Below, one piece after another: positions 14,204 to 37,309 of a stretch of 64,000 nt of DNA. The translations under genes and the position numbers were made by a program. The number at the start of each line of letters is the position of its first letter. Within the stretch, counting starts at the first letter, position 1. The stretch is from the sequence record OL631482.1; one strand, given 5' to 3'. This DNA is from Escherichia phage ECML-359. Under the pieces are notes generated by a model, which saw nothing but the letters and a program-made list of their open reading frames with translations, was not told where the DNA came from and did no database searches.

Positions 14204-14728
14204 TTATGCGAGAACCGTCTTTAAACGCTCTTCAAACTTCCGAAGGAGTACCTGGCGCTCTGCTCTTTGTTTGGTATAGGTTTCAATACGCTCTGAAGTG
14301 AGATTGTATTGTTCATTAACTGATTCCCTCATGAATTCAGGAATCTCTTTACATGCTTTGATTTCATTGAACTTATCAAGCACCGCTTGTTGTTCAGCAA
14401 TCAGACCATCATAATATTGGATATCTGATTTGATGTTTTGTACATCAGATTCAGTAGGCATATTTTTCTTCGCTCTTGTCGCCTGATACTCTGCATTAGT
14501 CTCTCTTGACCAGAACAAAGAGCGGTTTTTGTTGGTGTTTTTATACACATCAACAATACCTACTGAATCAACAGTCACAATCCAGTTCCAGGCGTTTTTA
14601 TAAGTTTGACCACCTGATACTGTAATCTCACCCGCACAAGCAACATCATTAAAGAACTTGCTTTGTGCTTCTGATTTAAAATTACCATTATTGTAATTAA
14701 TCAGATTAAAGATTGATTTAGCTTCCAT
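14204..14728 (-). CDS. hypothetical protein (174 aa)
   Basis: ORF track; promoter cassette immediately upstream. Confidence 0.55.
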   Translation of the reverse strand: MEAKSIFNLINYNNGNFKSEAQSKFFNDVACAGEITVSGGQTYKNAWNWIVTVDSVGIVDVYKNTNKNRSLFWSRETNAEYQATRAKKNMPTESDVQNIKSDIQYYDGLIAEQQAVLDKFNEIKACKEIPEFMRESVNEQYNLTSERIETYTKQRAERQVLLRKFEERLKTVLA

Positions 14729-14764
14729 TTTATTCTCCAGTATTTGGTAACTCAGTATGGGAAC

Positions 14765-15105: not shown

Positions 15106-15312
15106 TCACTTGCGACGACGTTTTGGTAATGGTTTAGGGAAGAACATTGCTTTACCTGCAGGGGTCAAAGTCACGCGCAAAGCATTACCAATACCAAGGG
15201 ATGCTTTAACCAGACCTTTGGCTTTTAACTCACCAAATGCTTGACGTTGTTCAGGGTCACGAGTGTTAACCATCAGACCTTTTTCACCAGCAGCTTTGAT
15301 TAATTCTAACAT
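15106..15312 (-). CDS. hypothetical basic protein (68 aa)
   Basis: ORF track; C-terminal KPLPKRRRK; promoter cassette upstream. Confidence 0.45.
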   Translation of the reverse strand: MLELIKAAGEKGLMVNTRDPEQRQAFGELKAKGLVKASLGIGNALRVTLTPAGKAMFFPKPLPKRRRK

Positions 15313-15429
15313 TTTATTCTCCGTTTGTTTATTTGGTAACTCAGTATGGAATCATTATGCATCATGACCATCTGGTTGTACACATATACTAAATAAAAAT
15401 ACTTAATAAAACCATAAAGGAGAAAGTTT

Positions 15430-34183: not shown

Positions 34184-34489
34184 TTAGATTTTGTTTTCCT
34201 GCACACCATAGTAAAGTTCATCAGACACAATATCCAGGATGCGGCGAACATATTCATCATGGTATTGGCAGTCAAAATCAAATGCAACAGTAGTTTCCGC
34301 TTCACGAGTGAATTTAACTTGCACATTCAGGTGATTAACAACGTTAGTTAATTTATCAGTAAAGAACTCTTTTGCTACCGCCTGTTGGACTTGCACTTTA
34401 AACTTGGTGTTACGAATCATATTTTCAGCAGATGCGAAATTACCAGTTTTATCAAAGTCAACAAGCGCCAGGTTGATGATGAATTTCAT
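34184..34489 (-). CDS. hypothetical protein (101 aa)
   Basis: ORF track; promoter cassette upstream. Confidence 0.5.
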   Translation of the reverse strand: MKFIINLALVDFDKTGNFASAENMIRNTKFKVQVQQAVAKEFFTDKLTNVVNHLNVQVKFTREAETTVAFDFDCQYHDEYVRRILDIVSDELYYGVQENKI

Positions 34490-34572
34490 TTTATTCTCCA
34501 GTGTTTTATTTGGTAACTCAGTATGGAATCATTATGCCTTAAAGCAGGGGGCTTGTATACCCCCTTTTTGAA

Positions 34573-35004
34573 TTAAATTTCAAATTCTTTGCGGAAGTTG
34601 GAAGCATAAGACTGAACTGATGCTTTGTTGAATCCAAACTCACGCACAATCATATCAATAACAGCTCTGCGAGCAGCACCATTAGACATATTAACAGTTT
34701 TGAACATATCATAGCATAAATCTTTGTTGCTCATACCGGAGCGTTTAGGTGCCTTACGTTCAGCTTTAGGAGTAGGTTTAACTTCTGGTTTAACCTGTCC
34801 ATCATTCAGACCTTTAAAAATTTTACCTGCCAGAGTTGCCAGTTTAGCAGCTTCGCCACGAGTGATACCAAATACTGCCGGGTTAAATGAAATACCTTCA
34901 GCTGCCAGACGTTTGAAGAACATACGTGCTGCGGATTGTGCTTCAGCTTCAGAAGAGTTGTTTAATGCCAGCTTAACGTACTTAACCAGTTTTGAAGTTT
35001 TCAT
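34573..35004 (-). CDS. hypothetical protein, paralog of 35087..35512
   Basis: Shared C-terminal module NGAARRAVIDMIV...VQSYASNFRK. Confidence 0.55.
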   Translation of the reverse strand: MKTSKLVKYVKLALNNSSEAEAQSAARMFFKRLAAEGISFNPAVFGITRGEAAKLATLAGKIFKGLNDGQVKPEVKPTPKAERKAPKRSGMSNKDLCYDMFKTVNMSNGAARRAVIDMIVREFGFNKASVQSYASNFRKEFEI

Positions 35005-35045
35005 TTTATTCTCCAGTGTTTTATTTGGTAACTCAGTATGGGATA

Positions 35046-35074
35046 ATTATACACTATCCCACTTGGAAGTAAAA
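35046..35074 (-). promoter_or_regulatory. early promoter (-35 TTTTAC, 17 bp, -10 TATAAT) inside palindrome
   Basis: Minus-strand reading TTTTACttccaagtgggatagtgTATAAT, then conserved leader ...actgagttaccaaataaaacactggagaataaa. Confidence 0.5.
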
Positions 35075-35086
35075 CACTTTTCTCAA

Positions 35087-35512
35087 TTATTTTTGAGCTT
35101 TGCGGAAGTTGGAAGCATATGACTGAACAACAGTCTTTTTGATATCATGGGTGTTAACCAGAACATCAATCAGGGCGCGGCGAGCTGCACCATCTGCCAT
35201 ATCAATTTCTGCAAATGCCTGGAAGCAAATGTCACGAGCATTACCAGATTTGGACTGGATTTTTTCTTCTTTAACTTCTTCAATTGGGAATTCAATCATT
35301 TCAGCTTGGATTAATTCAATGATAGATTCTTTTGACTGTTTGGTGTTTACCTTCAGTTCAGAATTAAGGGACTTAGCGATGGCAACAATCTGGGTTGAAG
35401 TCAGATGAATAAGTGCATCTTCACGAATGCAGATTTCACATACTTCGTCGGCAACCATTTTGTTAGTGATGCGGGTAACAGAGAATGCAGAAGTCAGGGT
35501 CAGGAAGTTCAT
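35087..35512 (-). CDS. hypothetical protein, paralog of 34573..35004
   Basis: Start at MNFLTLT after cassette leader; C-terminal DGAARRALIDVLV...VQSYASNFRK. Confidence 0.55.
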   Translation of the reverse strand: MNFLTLTSAFSVTRITNKMVADEVCEICIREDALIHLTSTQIVAIAKSLNSELKVNTKQSKESIIELIQAEMIEFPIEEVKEEKIQSKSGNARDICFQAFAEIDMADGAARRALIDVLVNTHDIKKTVVQSYASNFRKAQK

Positions 35513-35618
35513 TTTATTTCTCCAAAGTTTTGTTTGATTCAGTGTGTAACTCAGTATGGAATCATTATGCATCCAGTCAATTCGGATGTACACTACTTTT
35601 TGAAGAAATATTAAAAAT

Positions 35619-35638
35619 AAACCCGCCGAAGCGGGTTT
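35619..35638 (-). terminator. rho-independent terminator
   Basis: Minus-strand AAACCCGCttcgGCGGGTTT followed by ATTTTTAATATTT. Confidence 0.55.
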
Positions 35639-35640
35639 GA

Positions 35641-36195
35641 TTAGTTCTTATAAAAGCGGAACGGATTTATATGAAAGGCGAGCATAGCCTTAGGGATTGG
35701 TCGGGACAGAAGACTCTTGAGCTTCCAGCCACAATAAACGCGCAGATAAAAGGTGATTCCACCGACCTTGAGATAAGGAACAGAAGCAAAAACACCCCAG
35801 GCATTATCCGTCCACATCCAGAGCCATCCGTGATGAGCTTTATCCGGGGAGCCGGATTCAACATCAGGATTACCTTTATAATGGAATTCTGAATTGCAAT
35901 CACGACCGAGCTTGTGGTAAGCAAAATTGTATGCTTTGTTTCGCCAGAGCCAGGCTACTCGTTGGAAGTAAACACCTAATGGCCATTTTCGGATTTTTGA
36001 CCAACGCTCGACATGACCCCGGTCACCATCAATCGGATTATCATAAGTCATCATCCAATCAAACCCGAACGGAAGTTTACCAGTCTTTTTATTATGGAAT
36101 GGAACTACAAATGGAGCCAGGATAACGGCCAGAATCATGGAGATAAAATCCAGTGGAACTAACAGAATCCAACTCAAATATTTTAACAGTTTCAT
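35641..36195 (-). CDS. hypothetical membrane-anchored protein (about 185 aa)
   Basis: Start at MKLLKYLSWILLVPLDFISMILAVILAPFVV (TM); Trp-rich. Confidence 0.5.
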   Translation of the reverse strand: MKLLKYLSWILLVPLDFISMILAVILAPFVVPFHNKKTGKLPFGFDWMMTYDNPIDGDRGHVERWSKIRKWPLGVYFQRVAWLWRNKAYNFAYHKLGRDCNSEFHYKGNPDVESGSPDKAHHGWLWMWTDNAWGVFASVPYLKVGGITFYLRVYCGWKLKSLLSRPIPKAMLAFHINPFRFYKN

Positions 36196-36284: not shown

Positions 36285-36668
36285 TTATCCGCGAGCGAAT
36301 GCCATTGCGGCGCGTTCGTTGGCACGGTCGGTGATGTTCAAGAATTTATCACGAGCGATTTCGATTGGAGCGCCAACCCAGTCAGCAGCACCATTACCTG
36401 GAGACTGTTTAGGGCGAACCATATAAGTTGAAACTTTAGAACCGGCCAGTTTGGCACCTGGTGCCGCGGCATTTTTAACGTCTTTAGCTTTGATGCCAAA
36501 CCCAGTTACGATACCCCAAGAAACACCATTAACTGGTTTCTTGAACATAACACGGTCACCAATTGAAACACCGGCTTTTTCTGGAGCCACTAAAGAAAAT
36601 TTACCAGCTTCAGTCAGTACGGATTCGGTGATGGTATTGCGATTTAAAAATTCTGCATATGTAAGCAT
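36285..36668 (-). CDS. putative virion internal protein with capsid-targeting-like N-terminus
   Basis: Starts MLTYAEFLNRNTITE, resembling MKTYQEFIxE; consensus late promoter 32 nt upstream. Confidence 0.55.
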   Translation of the reverse strand: MLTYAEFLNRNTITESVLTEAGKFSLVAPEKAGVSIGDRVMFKKPVNGVSWGIVTGFGIKAKDVKNAAAPGAKLAGSKVSTYMVRPKQSPGNGAADWVGAPIEIARDKFLNITDRANERAAMAFARG

Positions 36669-37156: not shown

Positions 37157-37233
37157 TGGTCGGGGTGGTGGGATTCTAACCCACAACCTACGGTTTAGAA
37201 GACCGTTGCTCTATACAATTGAGCTACACCCCG
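37157..37233 (-). tRNA. tRNA-Arg (anticodon UCU), CCA encoded
   Basis: Hand-folded cloverleaf: acceptor CGGGGTG/CACCCCG, D stem GCTC/GAGC, anticodon stem ACGGT/ACCGT, loop CTTCTAA, T stem GTGGG/CCCAC. Confidence 0.8.
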
Positions 37234-37235
37234 GG

Positions 37236-37309
37236 TGGCCCCATCCGGACTTGAACCGGAAACCTGCCAGTTATGAGCCGGATGCTCTAACCAATTGAGC
37301 TACAGGGCC
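37236..37309 (-). tRNA. tRNA with CAU anticodon (Met or Ile2)
   Basis: Hand-folded cloverleaf: D stem GCTC/GAGC, T stem TCCGG/CCGGA with TTCAAGT loop, anticodon loop CTCATAA; one anticodon-stem mismatch. Confidence 0.65.

What the first reader, a model, noticed from the sequence alone, without database searches (positions are those of the whole stretch)
34573..35512. Adjacent paralog pair, each with its own promoter cassette and a conserved C-terminal module
34573..35004 and 35087..35512 share a roughly 40-residue C-terminal module (NGAARRAVIDMIVREFGFNKASVQSYASNFRK versus DGAARRALIDVLVNTHDIKKTVVQSYASNFRK) but have different N-terminal halves. Both are preceded by type-2 cassettes with nearly identical leaders. 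This looks like duplication followed by N-terminal domain swapping.
Basis: seen in the sequence. Interest (0 to 1): 0.45.

Follow-up and report, generated by a model that had tools for sequence, protein, structure and literature searches.

The report
Paired phage early genes sharing one domain
Two neighbouring early genes of a T4-like coliphage encode proteins with unrelated front halves and the same small three-helix tail domain. The pair is old, is conserved in several phage groups, and sits between known mobile promoter cassettes, but its function is still unknown.

Summary
34573..35004(-) (gene A, 143 aa) and 35087..35512(-) (gene B, 141 aa) are intact adjacent genes in the e.6-tRNA hyperplastic region of a JS98/SP18-like T4-type phage (Gaprivervirus). 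Their last ~55 residues are homologous (28/58 identical, E=7e-18). Their N-terminal halves are unrelated, even profile against profile.

AlphaFold gives different N-domains, a disordered linker and a shared three-helix bundle whose third helix, VQSYASN[FY]RK, is nearly invariant.

This is not a recent local duplication. Both architectures occur together in a Morganella T4-like phage and in ~45-kb Erwinia-type phages; in a metagenomic contig B sits beside a paralog with a third N-terminal type. B occurs alone in Acinetobacter T4-likes and in Rosemountvirus. A stand-alone 71-aa copy sits between an early promoter and motA in the same genus.

The "cassettes" are T4-type sigma-70 early promoters with an unstructured conserved leader. 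These match PeSL-type mobile regulatory cassettes, which are already described. A close relative carries an extra gene inserted exactly between two cassettes.

The parts
35619..35638 (-). Intrinsic terminator hairpin (AAACCCGCTTCGGCGGGTTT followed by a T-run) upstream of gene B's promoter. This is the stem-loop part of the PeSL-type cassette.
   Evidence: (terminator scan)
35513..35605 (-). Early-promoter cassette of gene B: AT-rich upstream region, -35 TGTACA (35592..35587), 17-nt spacer, -10 CATAAT (35569..35564), then the conserved leader CCATACTGAGTTAC with a 9-nt insert, and GGAG. It is about 90% identical, by eye on alignment A9, to the cassette in front of the S-motA operon of the related phage VR26.
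35087..35512 (-). Gene B, 141 aa (phrog_9997, unknown function), pI 5.7. N-domain residues 1-78 are three beta strands plus a helix-extended-helix. Linker is residues 79-90. C-module residues ~88-141 correspond to 35090..35251.
35005..35086 (-). Early-promoter cassette of gene A: -35 TTTACT (35073..35068), 16-nt spacer, -10 TATAAT (35051..35046), conserved leader, GGAG. No stem-loop is evident. In VR25 this same cassette precedes an extra 98-aa gene.
34573..35004 (-). Gene A, 143 aa (phrog_18416, unknown function), pI 10.1, net charge +13. N-domain residues 1-69 are helical. The Lys/Pro/Ala/Glu linker is residues 70-88 (34741..34797) with a (PKAE)n length polymorphism. C-module residues 89-143 correspond to 34576..34740.
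34490..34572 (-). Third cassette, driving the next gene: a G5-loop-C5 stem-loop (34546..34565) overlapping the -35 TATACA (34559..34554), -10 CATAAT (34536..34531), and a leader identical to A's.
34184..34489 (-). Downstream 101-aa gene (phrog_7474, unknown function). It shares the cassette type but not the module.

Best explanation
A and B are two members of a small, phage-restricted family. A third member lies elsewhere in genomes of this genus. All share a ~55-residue C-terminal three-helix domain joined by a flexible linker to different N-terminal domains:
- A: a basic helical domain plus a Lys/Pro-rich linker.
- B: a small beta sheet plus a helix-extended-helix, acidic overall.
- S: no N-domain.

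Shown here:
- The genes are real and under purifying selection.
- The paralogy is ancient.
- A B-type gene sits next to a second module-bearing paralog in at least four phage lineages. That paralog is demonstrably A-type in three of them: Gaprivervirus, Morganella phage MP1 and the ~45-kb phages.
- Each gene is its own early transcription unit. It is driven by a T4-type sigma-70 early promoter with an unstructured, Shine-Dalgarno-bearing leader, which fits the PeSL-type mobile regulatory cassettes known to mediate gene gain and loss in T4-like hyperplastic regions.

Inferred:
- The shared module is a common targeting domain. The solvent-facing side of its third helix (Q, S, S, N, R, K of VQSYASN[FY]RK) is nearly invariant across paralogs and lineages, and I take it to bind one conserved ligand.
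- That ligand is most likely nucleic acid or a component of the host transcription machinery.
- The N-domains would add different second contacts or activities.
- After infection, host RNA polymerase would transcribe both genes from their own strong early promoters. The proteins would then act in host takeover or in the early-to-middle transcription programme.
For: Real paralogs:
- BLASTP E=7e-18. These are the only two module copies in the window.
- pN/pS is 0.04-0.22.

Structure:
- The AF2 model of B has pLDDT 83.6 and that of A 77.3. Both show two domains, a linker with pLDDT below 50, and C-terminal helices at ~92-100, 108-122 and 126-140.

Ancient, conserved pair:
- MP1 has gp119 (A-type) and gp117 (B-type), each with a promoter annotated by the record's authors.
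- Erwinia phage RF1 and IMG/VR 45-kb contigs carry B then A on the strand opposite to their neighbours. In the IMG/VR contig L012, where I read the intergenic sequence, each gene has its own promoter-like and terminator-like sequences.
- Contig L020 carries B and then a paralog with a third N-terminal type.
- The family is tiny: 15 representative clusters, two of them probable TAL-repeat artefacts, among 1.84 billion proteins.

Cassettes fit PeSL:
- Promoter hexamers and terminators are present.
- Five exact core copies occur against 0.33 expected.
- The leaders are unstructured, z=+0.65 to +1.4.
- VR25 has an extra 98-aa gene bounded exactly by two cassettes.
- The layout matches the published PeSL definition (PMC2839356; PMC4122927).

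Functional hints:
- The only non-repeat PDB sequence hit of the module profile below E=0.1 is a homeodomain (2da3, E=0.017).
- The best hhalign register puts the module's Y/N/R on homeodomain W48/N51/R53.
- The module is consistently basic (pI ~9), and A-type proteins have pI ~10.
- The stand-alone paralog S lies between the early promoter and motA, with stop and start 2-10 nt apart, in two diverged relatives.
- An A-type homolog lies between mrh and a Mod ADP-ribosyltransferase gene in another T4-like contig.
Against: - No function has been shown for any family member. All are annotated hypothetical, or in PHROGs of unknown function.
- Sequence-level kinship to homeodomains is not supported: no Pfam hit and hhalign probability 2.8%.
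- The module's net charge is only 0 to +7, far less basic than typical homeodomains.
- The 'invariant' Asn is Tyr in the divergent Rosemountvirus branch.
- Gene neighbourhood in T4-like early regions is weak evidence, because those regions are dense with unrelated small genes.
- A's cassette lacks an evident stem-loop.
Confidence: 0.55

Rival explanations
1. One reading: a recent tandem duplication within this phage, after which one copy exchanged its N-terminal half by recombination at the cassettes.
For: - The genes are adjacent, in the same orientation and of the same length, and share a cassette type.
- The last 10 shared codons are identical at 9 of 10 codons (33/34 nt).
- Cassette-mediated gene gain or loss does happen at this locus.
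Against: - The module is only 48% identical in amino acids and 65% in nucleotides between A and B.
- Distinct A-type and B-type orthologs already exist in MP1 and RF1-like phages; a metagenomic contig pairs B with a paralog of a third N-terminal type.
- In the 45-kb phages A and B differ at 5 of the same 10 synonymous positions.
- The homology boundary lies in the protein linker, about 260 nt downstream of the cassette.
Confidence: 0.05
2. The shared module is a protein-protein interaction domain rather than a nucleic-acid binder. It either docks all three paralogs onto one conserved host protein (for example an RNA polymerase subunit or sigma-70), or lets A (very basic), B (acidic) and S form mixed oligomers.
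For: - The module has modest net charge.
- Co-inheritance of A and B as a pair, with complementary overall charge.
- S is co-transcribed with MotA, itself a sigma-70-binding protein.
- There is an insignificant sequence hint from A's N-domain to T7 Gp2, an RNA polymerase inhibitor (E=0.35).
Against: - No partner was identified.
- The best structural matches for the better model (B) are DNA-bound BEN domains and homeodomains.
- B carries a helix-extended-helix of the Rho-N/SAP kind, and A has a histone-tail-like Lys/Pro linker. Both are typical of nucleic-acid binders.
- B-type and module-only forms occur without A in several lineages, so obligate heteromerisation is unlikely.
Confidence: 0.3
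3. The near-perfect nucleotide identity of the last ~34 nt of the two coding regions reflects local gene conversion between the paralogs, or a DNA-level element such as a recombination hotspot contiguous with the downstream cassette. On this view protein constraint alone does not explain it.
For: - 33/34 nt are identical, and 9 of 10 codons are identical in the window, against 5/10 in the 45-kb phages and 6/8 in MP1.
- Both paralogs here share Phe where most relatives have Tyr.
- Similarity continues past the stop codon into the cassettes.
Against: - The stretch is short, the amino acids are invariant family-wide, and codon bias in an AT-rich phage limits the choices.
- The S paralog of the same genus uses different codons.
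- There is no excess identity in the rest of the module.
Confidence: 0.15
4. The ORFs are expendable ORFan cargo of mobile cassettes with no selected function.
For: - The locus is hyperplastic: A is truncated to 68 aa in VR7, B is reduced to 74 aa in Providencia and Morganella phages, and T4 carries the unrelated e.7 and e.8 genes in this slot.
- The genes are present in only ~35 of 617 related records.
Against: - pN/pS is 0.04-0.22.
- Protein conservation across lineages has synonymous sites that differ.
- The pair and its regulatory independence are conserved in unrelated genome backgrounds.
Confidence: 0.05

Closest known systems
PeSL (promoter-early stem-loop) mobile regulatory cassettes of T4-type phages (Arbiol et al. 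2010, PMC2839356; Comeau et al. 2014, PMC4122927)
   Same: - An intergenic unit made of the upstream gene's stop codon in an AT-rich tract, a sigma-70-type -35/-10 pair, a stem-loop (here a terminator upstream of B's promoter and a G5-loop-C5 over the -35 of the 34513 cassette), a Shine-Dalgarno and a start codon.
- Repeated in a hyperplastic region.
- Gene-sized indels between close relatives are bounded by cassettes.
   Different: - The sequence is specific to the JS98/SP18 group: GTGTACA, 17 nt, cATAAT, and an unusually long conserved leader CCATACTGAGTTACCAAATAAAACACTGGAG.
- A's own cassette has no evident stem-loop.
- Promoter and terminator activity and mini-circle formation were not tested here.
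Homeodomain and BEN-domain three-helix DNA-binding folds (for example engrailed 1du0, Bsg25A 4x0g)
   Same: - Three helices with a long third helix.
- A short basic stretch precedes helix 1.
- The conserved exposed face of helix 3 falls in the register of homeodomain positions 46/47/50/51/53/54.
   Different: - No significant sequence or profile similarity (Pfam none; hhalign probability 2.8%).
- Much lower positive charge.
- Asn is not universal in the family.
- DNA binding is untested.
- The A model matches non-DNA-binding helical proteins equally well.
Rho N-terminal / SAP-type helix-extended-helix motifs (compared with B's N-domain)
   Same: - Helix 39-49, an extended loop and helix 61-74, with the pattern L..IAK.L......V..K.SKE.I...I.
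- A public annotation of the ortholog calls it 'rho-N domain-containing'.
   Different: - No Pfam, NCBIfam or PDB sequence hit.
- It is preceded by a three-stranded sheet that is absent from Rho_N and SAP.
DUF2786 (PF10979) helical N-terminal motif (compared with A's N-domain)
   Same: The motif KL.KYI.LALNNSSEGEA...A resembles the DUF2786 core. Two homologs hit it at matching positions 3-28.
   Different: E-values of 0.04-0.16 are below the curated cut-off. The window protein itself gives no hit. DUF2786 has no known function.
T4 e.7 / e.8 and motA.1 (genes occupying the equivalent slots in T4)
   Same: - The same genomic slots: between e.6 and the tRNA cluster, and between gene 52 and motA.
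- Small early genes of unknown function.
   Different: No sequence relationship. T4 has no detectable copy of the module.

Membership tests
PeSL cassette | Sigma-70-type early promoter (-35 and -10 hexamers, 16-18 nt spacing) with an AT-rich upstream tract | tested here: met
   TTTACT-16-TATAAT (A), TGTACA-17-CATAAT (B), TATACA-17-CATAAT (next gene). The AT-rich tracts contain the upstream stop codons.
PeSL cassette | Associated stem-loop acting as terminator or attenuator | tested here: inconclusive
   Present upstream of B's promoter (35619..35638) and over the -35 of the 34513 cassette (34546..34565, G5-loop-C5). None is evident in A's cassette.
PeSL cassette | Ends with the Shine-Dalgarno and start codon of the downstream gene; repeated in hyperplastic regions | tested here: met
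   GGAG and ATG are present in all copies. Five exact core copies occur against 0.33 expected. The locus lies between e.6 and the tRNA genes.
PeSL cassette | Gene insertions, deletions or replacements between close relatives are bounded by cassettes | tested here: met
   VR25 (L008) has a 98-aa gene flanked by two cassettes between B and A. In the window A follows the first of these cassettes directly.
PeSL cassette | Demonstrated promoter or terminator activity and mini-circle formation | not testable with these tools
   Needs reporter fusions and PCR across circle junctions.
Homeodomain (Pfam Homeodomain / homeodomain-like superfamily) | Three-helix fold with helix-turn-helix geometry | tested here: met
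Homeodomain (Pfam Homeodomain / homeodomain-like superfamily) | Significant sequence or profile similarity to the family | tested here: not met
   No Pfam hit. hhalign against 8 homeodomains gives probability 2.8%. There is a single weak PDB hit, 2da3, E=0.017.
Homeodomain (Pfam Homeodomain / homeodomain-like superfamily) | Invariant helix-3 residues W48, N51 and R53 | tested here: inconclusive
   Y, N and R fall in the same register, but N is Y in the Rosemountvirus branch.
Homeodomain (Pfam Homeodomain / homeodomain-like superfamily) | Sequence-specific DNA binding | not testable with these tools
   Needs EMSA, SELEX or ChIP.
BEN domain | Helical DNA-binding domain with BEN sequence signature | tested here: not met
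Rho_N / SAP helix-extended-helix (B N-domain) | Profile match to Rho_N or SAP | tested here: not met
   No Pfam or NCBIfam hit at E<=1 in 20 homologs. The PDB profile search found nothing relevant.
Rho_N / SAP helix-extended-helix (B N-domain) | Two helices joined by an extended loop | tested here: inconclusive
DUF2786 (A N-domain) | Pfam PF10979 score above the gathering threshold | tested here: not met
   Best score 14.2 bits against a cut-off of 23.9, in 2 of 10 homologs. None for the window protein.
PHROG families 18416 (A), 9997 (B), 17275 (S) | Full-length profile match | tested here: met
   E=1e-87, 1.7e-70 and 7.8e-53 respectively, with cross-hits limited to the C-module. All three are annotated 'unknown function'.

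The most novel reading that the evidence does not exclude
The ~55-residue module is a previously undescribed phage domain that targets the host transcription apparatus or promoter DNA. On this reading its three paralogs (basic A, acidic B, and S encoded in one operon with MotA) form a new accessory layer of the early-to-middle transcription switch in a subset of T4-like phages, and the A+B pair is a portable two-gene takeover module that also moves into unrelated ~45-52-kb phages.
Probability: 0.15. Interest if true: 0.6.

Novelty: new member of a known kind. Interest (0 to 1): 0.35.

Why it matters
The finding matters in three modest ways.
- If the module proves to be a shared targeting domain for DNA or RNA polymerase, it would add a small, easily testable family to the set of phage host-takeover factors. 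The S-motA operon gives a direct experimental handle.
- The locus is a clean worked example of two separate layers of modular evolution in T4-like hyperplastic regions. Whole genes are gained and lost at PeSL cassettes, while domains are exchanged inside a disordered linker.
- It corrects an easy misreading: adjacent paralogs here are an old, co-inherited pair and not a fresh duplication.

As it stands, this is an uncharacterised accessory gene pair of moderate interest.

Tried and rejected
- The word-indexed homolog search with the two-sequence module alignment found nothing. The full-length queries and the exhaustive profile search did work.
- Pfam, NCBIfam and PADLOC gave no significant hits for A, B or S. 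A recurrent sub-threshold PBP_like hit (E 0.005-0.05) was judged noise.
- The PDB profile search of the module is dominated by TAL-effector repeats (E down to 1e-17). Every individual repeat scores only -2 to +4.6 bits, so the total is a sum of insignificant matches (LLPVLCQAHGLTPEQVVAIASN against vidlLveeygldkrvVQSYaSN). I rejected it. The 710-aa and 1339-aa multi-stretch hits probably have the same cause but were not inspected.
- A's N-domain against T7 Gp2 (E=0.35) and B's N-domain against ChlA (E=0.84) are not significant.
- BFVD Foldseek returned only uncharacterised family members. The afdb50 library was unavailable.
- T4 e.7, e.8 and their neighbours are unrelated to A and B.
- The conserved leaders have no RNA structure and no Rfam family.
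- I considered that the module proteins might bind their own conserved cassette. I did not pursue it, because from the few intergenic sequences I read, the cassette sequence looks lineage-specific while the module helix is conserved across lineages.

Full report
**Context**

The window is from a T4-like myovirus of the JS98/SP18 group (genus Gaprivervirus). The 4-kb stretch around the finding is 98.3% identical to Escherichia phage EAWsc9 and 96-97% identical to many relatives. In annotated relatives the locus lies between e.6 and the tRNA cluster, with all genes on the minus strand. The window itself has tRNA-Arg and tRNA-Met at 37157..37309. In T4 the same slot holds the unrelated genes e.7 and e.8.

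**Checking the observation**

- Gene A (34573..35004, 143 aa) and gene B (35087..35512, 141 aa; ATG at 35512 behind GGAG, not the upstream GTG) are intact.
- BLASTP aligns A82-139 with B82-138: 28/58 identical, E=7e-18.
- A search of all six-frame ORFs of the window with either module finds only the partner gene.
- Segment by segment at nucleotide level, the N-terminal halves are at chance (0.54 against a shuffle mean of 0.51), the module is at 0.65 and the flanking cassettes at 0.68-0.71.
- Profiles of the two N-domains are unrelated (hhalign probability 0.1%).
- The last 34 nt of the shared coding part are 33/34 identical.
- Both genes are under purifying selection (pN/pS 0.04-0.22 against SP18, VR26, VR25 and VR7).

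**The cassettes**

Each gene, and the next one downstream (34184..34489), is preceded by four elements: the stop codon of the upstream gene in an AT-rich tract, a -35-like hexamer ((G)TGTACA, TTTACT or TATACA), a 16-17-nt spacer, and then (C/T)ATAAT. A conserved leader follows, CCATACTGAGTTAC(+/-ACACTGAAT)CAAATAAAACACTGGAGAATAAA-ATG.

- The core occurs five times exactly in the window against 0.33 expected.
- A terminator hairpin precedes B's promoter. A G5-loop-C5 stem-loop overlaps the -35 of the third cassette.
- The leaders are less structured than shuffled controls, and no Rfam family matches them.
- This matches the published description of PeSLs, the promoter-early stem-loop cassettes that drive modular shuffling in T4-type hyperplastic regions (PMC2839356; PMC4122927).
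- The predicted consequence is visible. In VR25 a 98-aa gene sits between B and A, flanked by two cassettes. In the window that unit is missing, and A is joined directly to the first cassette.
- T4's own motA early promoter has the same layout.

**The proteins**

AlphaFold models (B: pLDDT 83.6, from 20 sequences; A: 77.3, from 6 sequences) show the following.
- B: strands 3-6, 12-16 and 27-30, then helices 31-36, 39-49 and 61-74.
- A: helices 3-15, 19-36 and 49-58.
- Both then have a linker with pLDDT below 50.
- Both end in three helices (~92-100, 108-122, 126-140).

In alignments the third helix, VQSYASN[FY]RK, is almost invariant across all family members. So are a Cys and a Phe in helix 1 and an Arg in helix 2. 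By helical periodicity, V, Y, A and F face the core and Q, S, S, N, R and K face the solvent; this is inference, not a measured result.

- A-type proteins are very basic (pI ~10, net +11 to +13 for most).
- B-type proteins are neutral to acidic.
- The module itself is mildly basic (pI ~9).
- A's linker carries a (PKAE)n repeat: n=1 here, 2 in SP18 and VR26, 4 in EAWsc9.

**Family size and distribution**

An exhaustive profile search of 1.84 billion representative proteins found only 15 clusters, two of which are probable TAL-repeat artefacts. The architectures are:
- A-type.
- B-type.
- A third N-terminal type (P0026, P0032). Only the module of P0026 aligns to the A-type profile.
- An A-type with a ~50-residue insertion (P0031).
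- Module-only proteins of 69-75 aa.

A B-type gene sits beside a second module-bearing paralog in four backgrounds:
- Gaprivervirus: B then A.
- Morganella phage MP1: A, then one gene, then B, each with a promoter annotated by the authors.
- ~45-kb phages (Erwinia phage RF1 and IMG/VR contigs): B then A on the opposite strand to the flanking thymidylate-kinase-like, spanin, RusA and HNH genes. In L012 each gene has its own promoter-like and terminator-like sequences.
- A metagenomic contig: B then P0026.

B occurs alone in Acinetobacter T4-likes. It also occurs alone in Rosemountvirus (Salmonella phage birk gp11) with a divergent module, VIQSYMSYYRN (hhalign probability 95%). VR7 has B plus a truncated 68-aa A. 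Providencia and Morganella phages have a 74-aa internal-deletion form of B. In the 45-kb phages A and B differ at five of the ten synonymous positions that are nearly identical here. The split is therefore old, and the 3' identity here is at most a local conversion tract.

**The third paralog**

In Gaprivervirus genomes a 71-aa module-only gene (phrog_17275) lies ~72-99 kb away, outside this window. The order there is: gene 52, a small membrane ORF, a terminator, a cassette of the B subtype, the S gene, and then motA, with stop and start as TAATTATG. The motA assignment rests on MotA_activ (2e-12), MotCF (2.4e-9) and phrog_1345 (3e-72). A diverged S (P0035) is again directly upstream of motA. 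T4 has 52, motA.1 and motA, with no S. An A-type homolog (P0031) sits between mrh and a Mod ADP-ribosyltransferase gene in another T4-like contig.

**What the module resembles**

- The A model gives the same DNA-binding hits, mixed with TOG/HEAT fragments and designed three-helix binders at equal Z.
- By sequence there is no Pfam, NCBIfam or PADLOC match.
- The module profile's only non-repeat PDB hit below E=0.1 is a homeodomain (2da3, E=0.017).
- hhalign against eight homeodomains aligns Y/N/R with W48/N51/R53, but with probability only 2.8%.
- BFVD returns only uncharacterised relatives.

I therefore treat 'homeodomain-like' as a description of the fold and of how the module may work. It is not a claim of family membership.

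**Interpretation**

Shown:
- The paralogy is real and restricted to a C-terminal domain.
- The split is ancient.
- A B-type gene is co-inherited with a second module-bearing paralog, demonstrably A-type in three lineages.
- Each gene has an independent early promoter, and this holds in unrelated genome backgrounds.
- The cassettes are of PeSL type, with a cassette-bounded indel at this very locus.

Inferred:
- The invariant exposed face of helix 3 binds one conserved ligand.
- I favour nucleic acid or the transcription machinery as that ligand, at roughly 0.4-0.45. The reasons are the fold matches, the basic character, the helix-extended-helix in B, the histone-tail-like linker in A, the S-motA operon and the mrh/mod neighbourhood.
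- A protein-protein docking or hetero-oligomerisation role is the main rival, at ~0.3.

**Verdict**

The cassette component is already known biology. The protein family is uncharacterised but small, and it is ordinary in kind: accessory early genes of a T4-like hyperplastic region. The one lead worth an experiment is the module-only paralog fused into the motA operon.

Noticed in passing
L015 2947..3162 (Escherichia phage VR26; outside the window), also L025 334..543: A stand-alone 69-71-aa copy of the module (phrog_17275) sits between an early promoter cassette and motA, forming an apparent S-motA bicistron (stop and start 2-10 nt apart). T4 has no such gene between motA.1 and motA.
   Followed up: partly
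L008 2273..2724 (VR25), compared with window 35005..35086: An extra 98-aa gene (phrog_27242, also present in VR7) lies between B and A, flanked by two cassettes. In the window it is absent, and A is joined directly to the first cassette. This is a cassette-bounded indel.
   Followed up: yes
window 34741..34797 (-): The linker of gene A carries a 12-nt (PKAE)n repeat with length polymorphism: n=1 here, 2 in SP18, VR25 and VR26, and 4 in EAWsc9. This K/P/A-rich stretch may be why one public record calls the ortholog 'H15 domain-containing'.
   Followed up: partly
window 34588..34621 and 35099..35132 (-): The last 34 nt of the shared coding region are 33/34 identical between A and B (9 of 10 codons identical). 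The same codons differ at 5 of 10 positions in the 45-kb phages. This is a possible short gene-conversion tract.
   Followed up: partly
window 14747..14760 and 15336..15349 (-): Two more exact copies of the cassette core CCATACTGAGTTAC lie ~20 kb away. They precede a 174-aa ORF (14204..14728) and a 68-aa basic ORF (15106..15312).
   Followed up: no
L005 3103..3309 (VR7ORF145c): In phage VR7, gene A is truncated to 68 aa (N-domain only, no module), while B is intact.
   Followed up: partly
L026-L029 3001..3225 (Providencia phage PSTRCR_127, Morganella phage Rgz1 and two metagenomic contigs): A 74-aa protein (P0030) consists of the first ~15 residues of a B-type protein joined directly to the module. 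It is an internal deletion that removes the helix-extended-helix domain, and it is found in several genomes and contigs.
   Followed up: partly
L030 2492..3055 (Salmonella phage birk gp11, Rosemountvirus): A 187-aa B-type protein has a divergent module (VIQSYMSYYRN; the Asn is replaced by Tyr) and an added acidic C-terminal tail. About 65 records from ~52-kb Salmonella, Klebsiella and related phages carry this form, which the module-only searches missed.
   Followed up: partly
L021 1764..2360 (metagenomic T4-like contig): An A-type homolog with a ~50-residue insertion (P0031, 198 aa) lies between an mrh homolog (PF24070) and a Mod ADP-ribosyltransferase gene (PF26816).
   Followed up: no
window 35641..36195 (-) and 36285..36668 (-): Upstream neighbours of the pair: a DUF7338 protein (E=1e-62), which one public record labels an amidase-6 domain protein, and a 127-aa ORF with no PHROG or Pfam match.
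   Followed up: no
L003 2127..2630 (Erwinia phage RF1): An HNH-endonuclease-like ORF is inserted between the B-type and A-type genes of RF1. The related IMG/VR contig L012 instead has a ~47-codon ORF and two terminator-like hairpins in that position.
   Followed up: no
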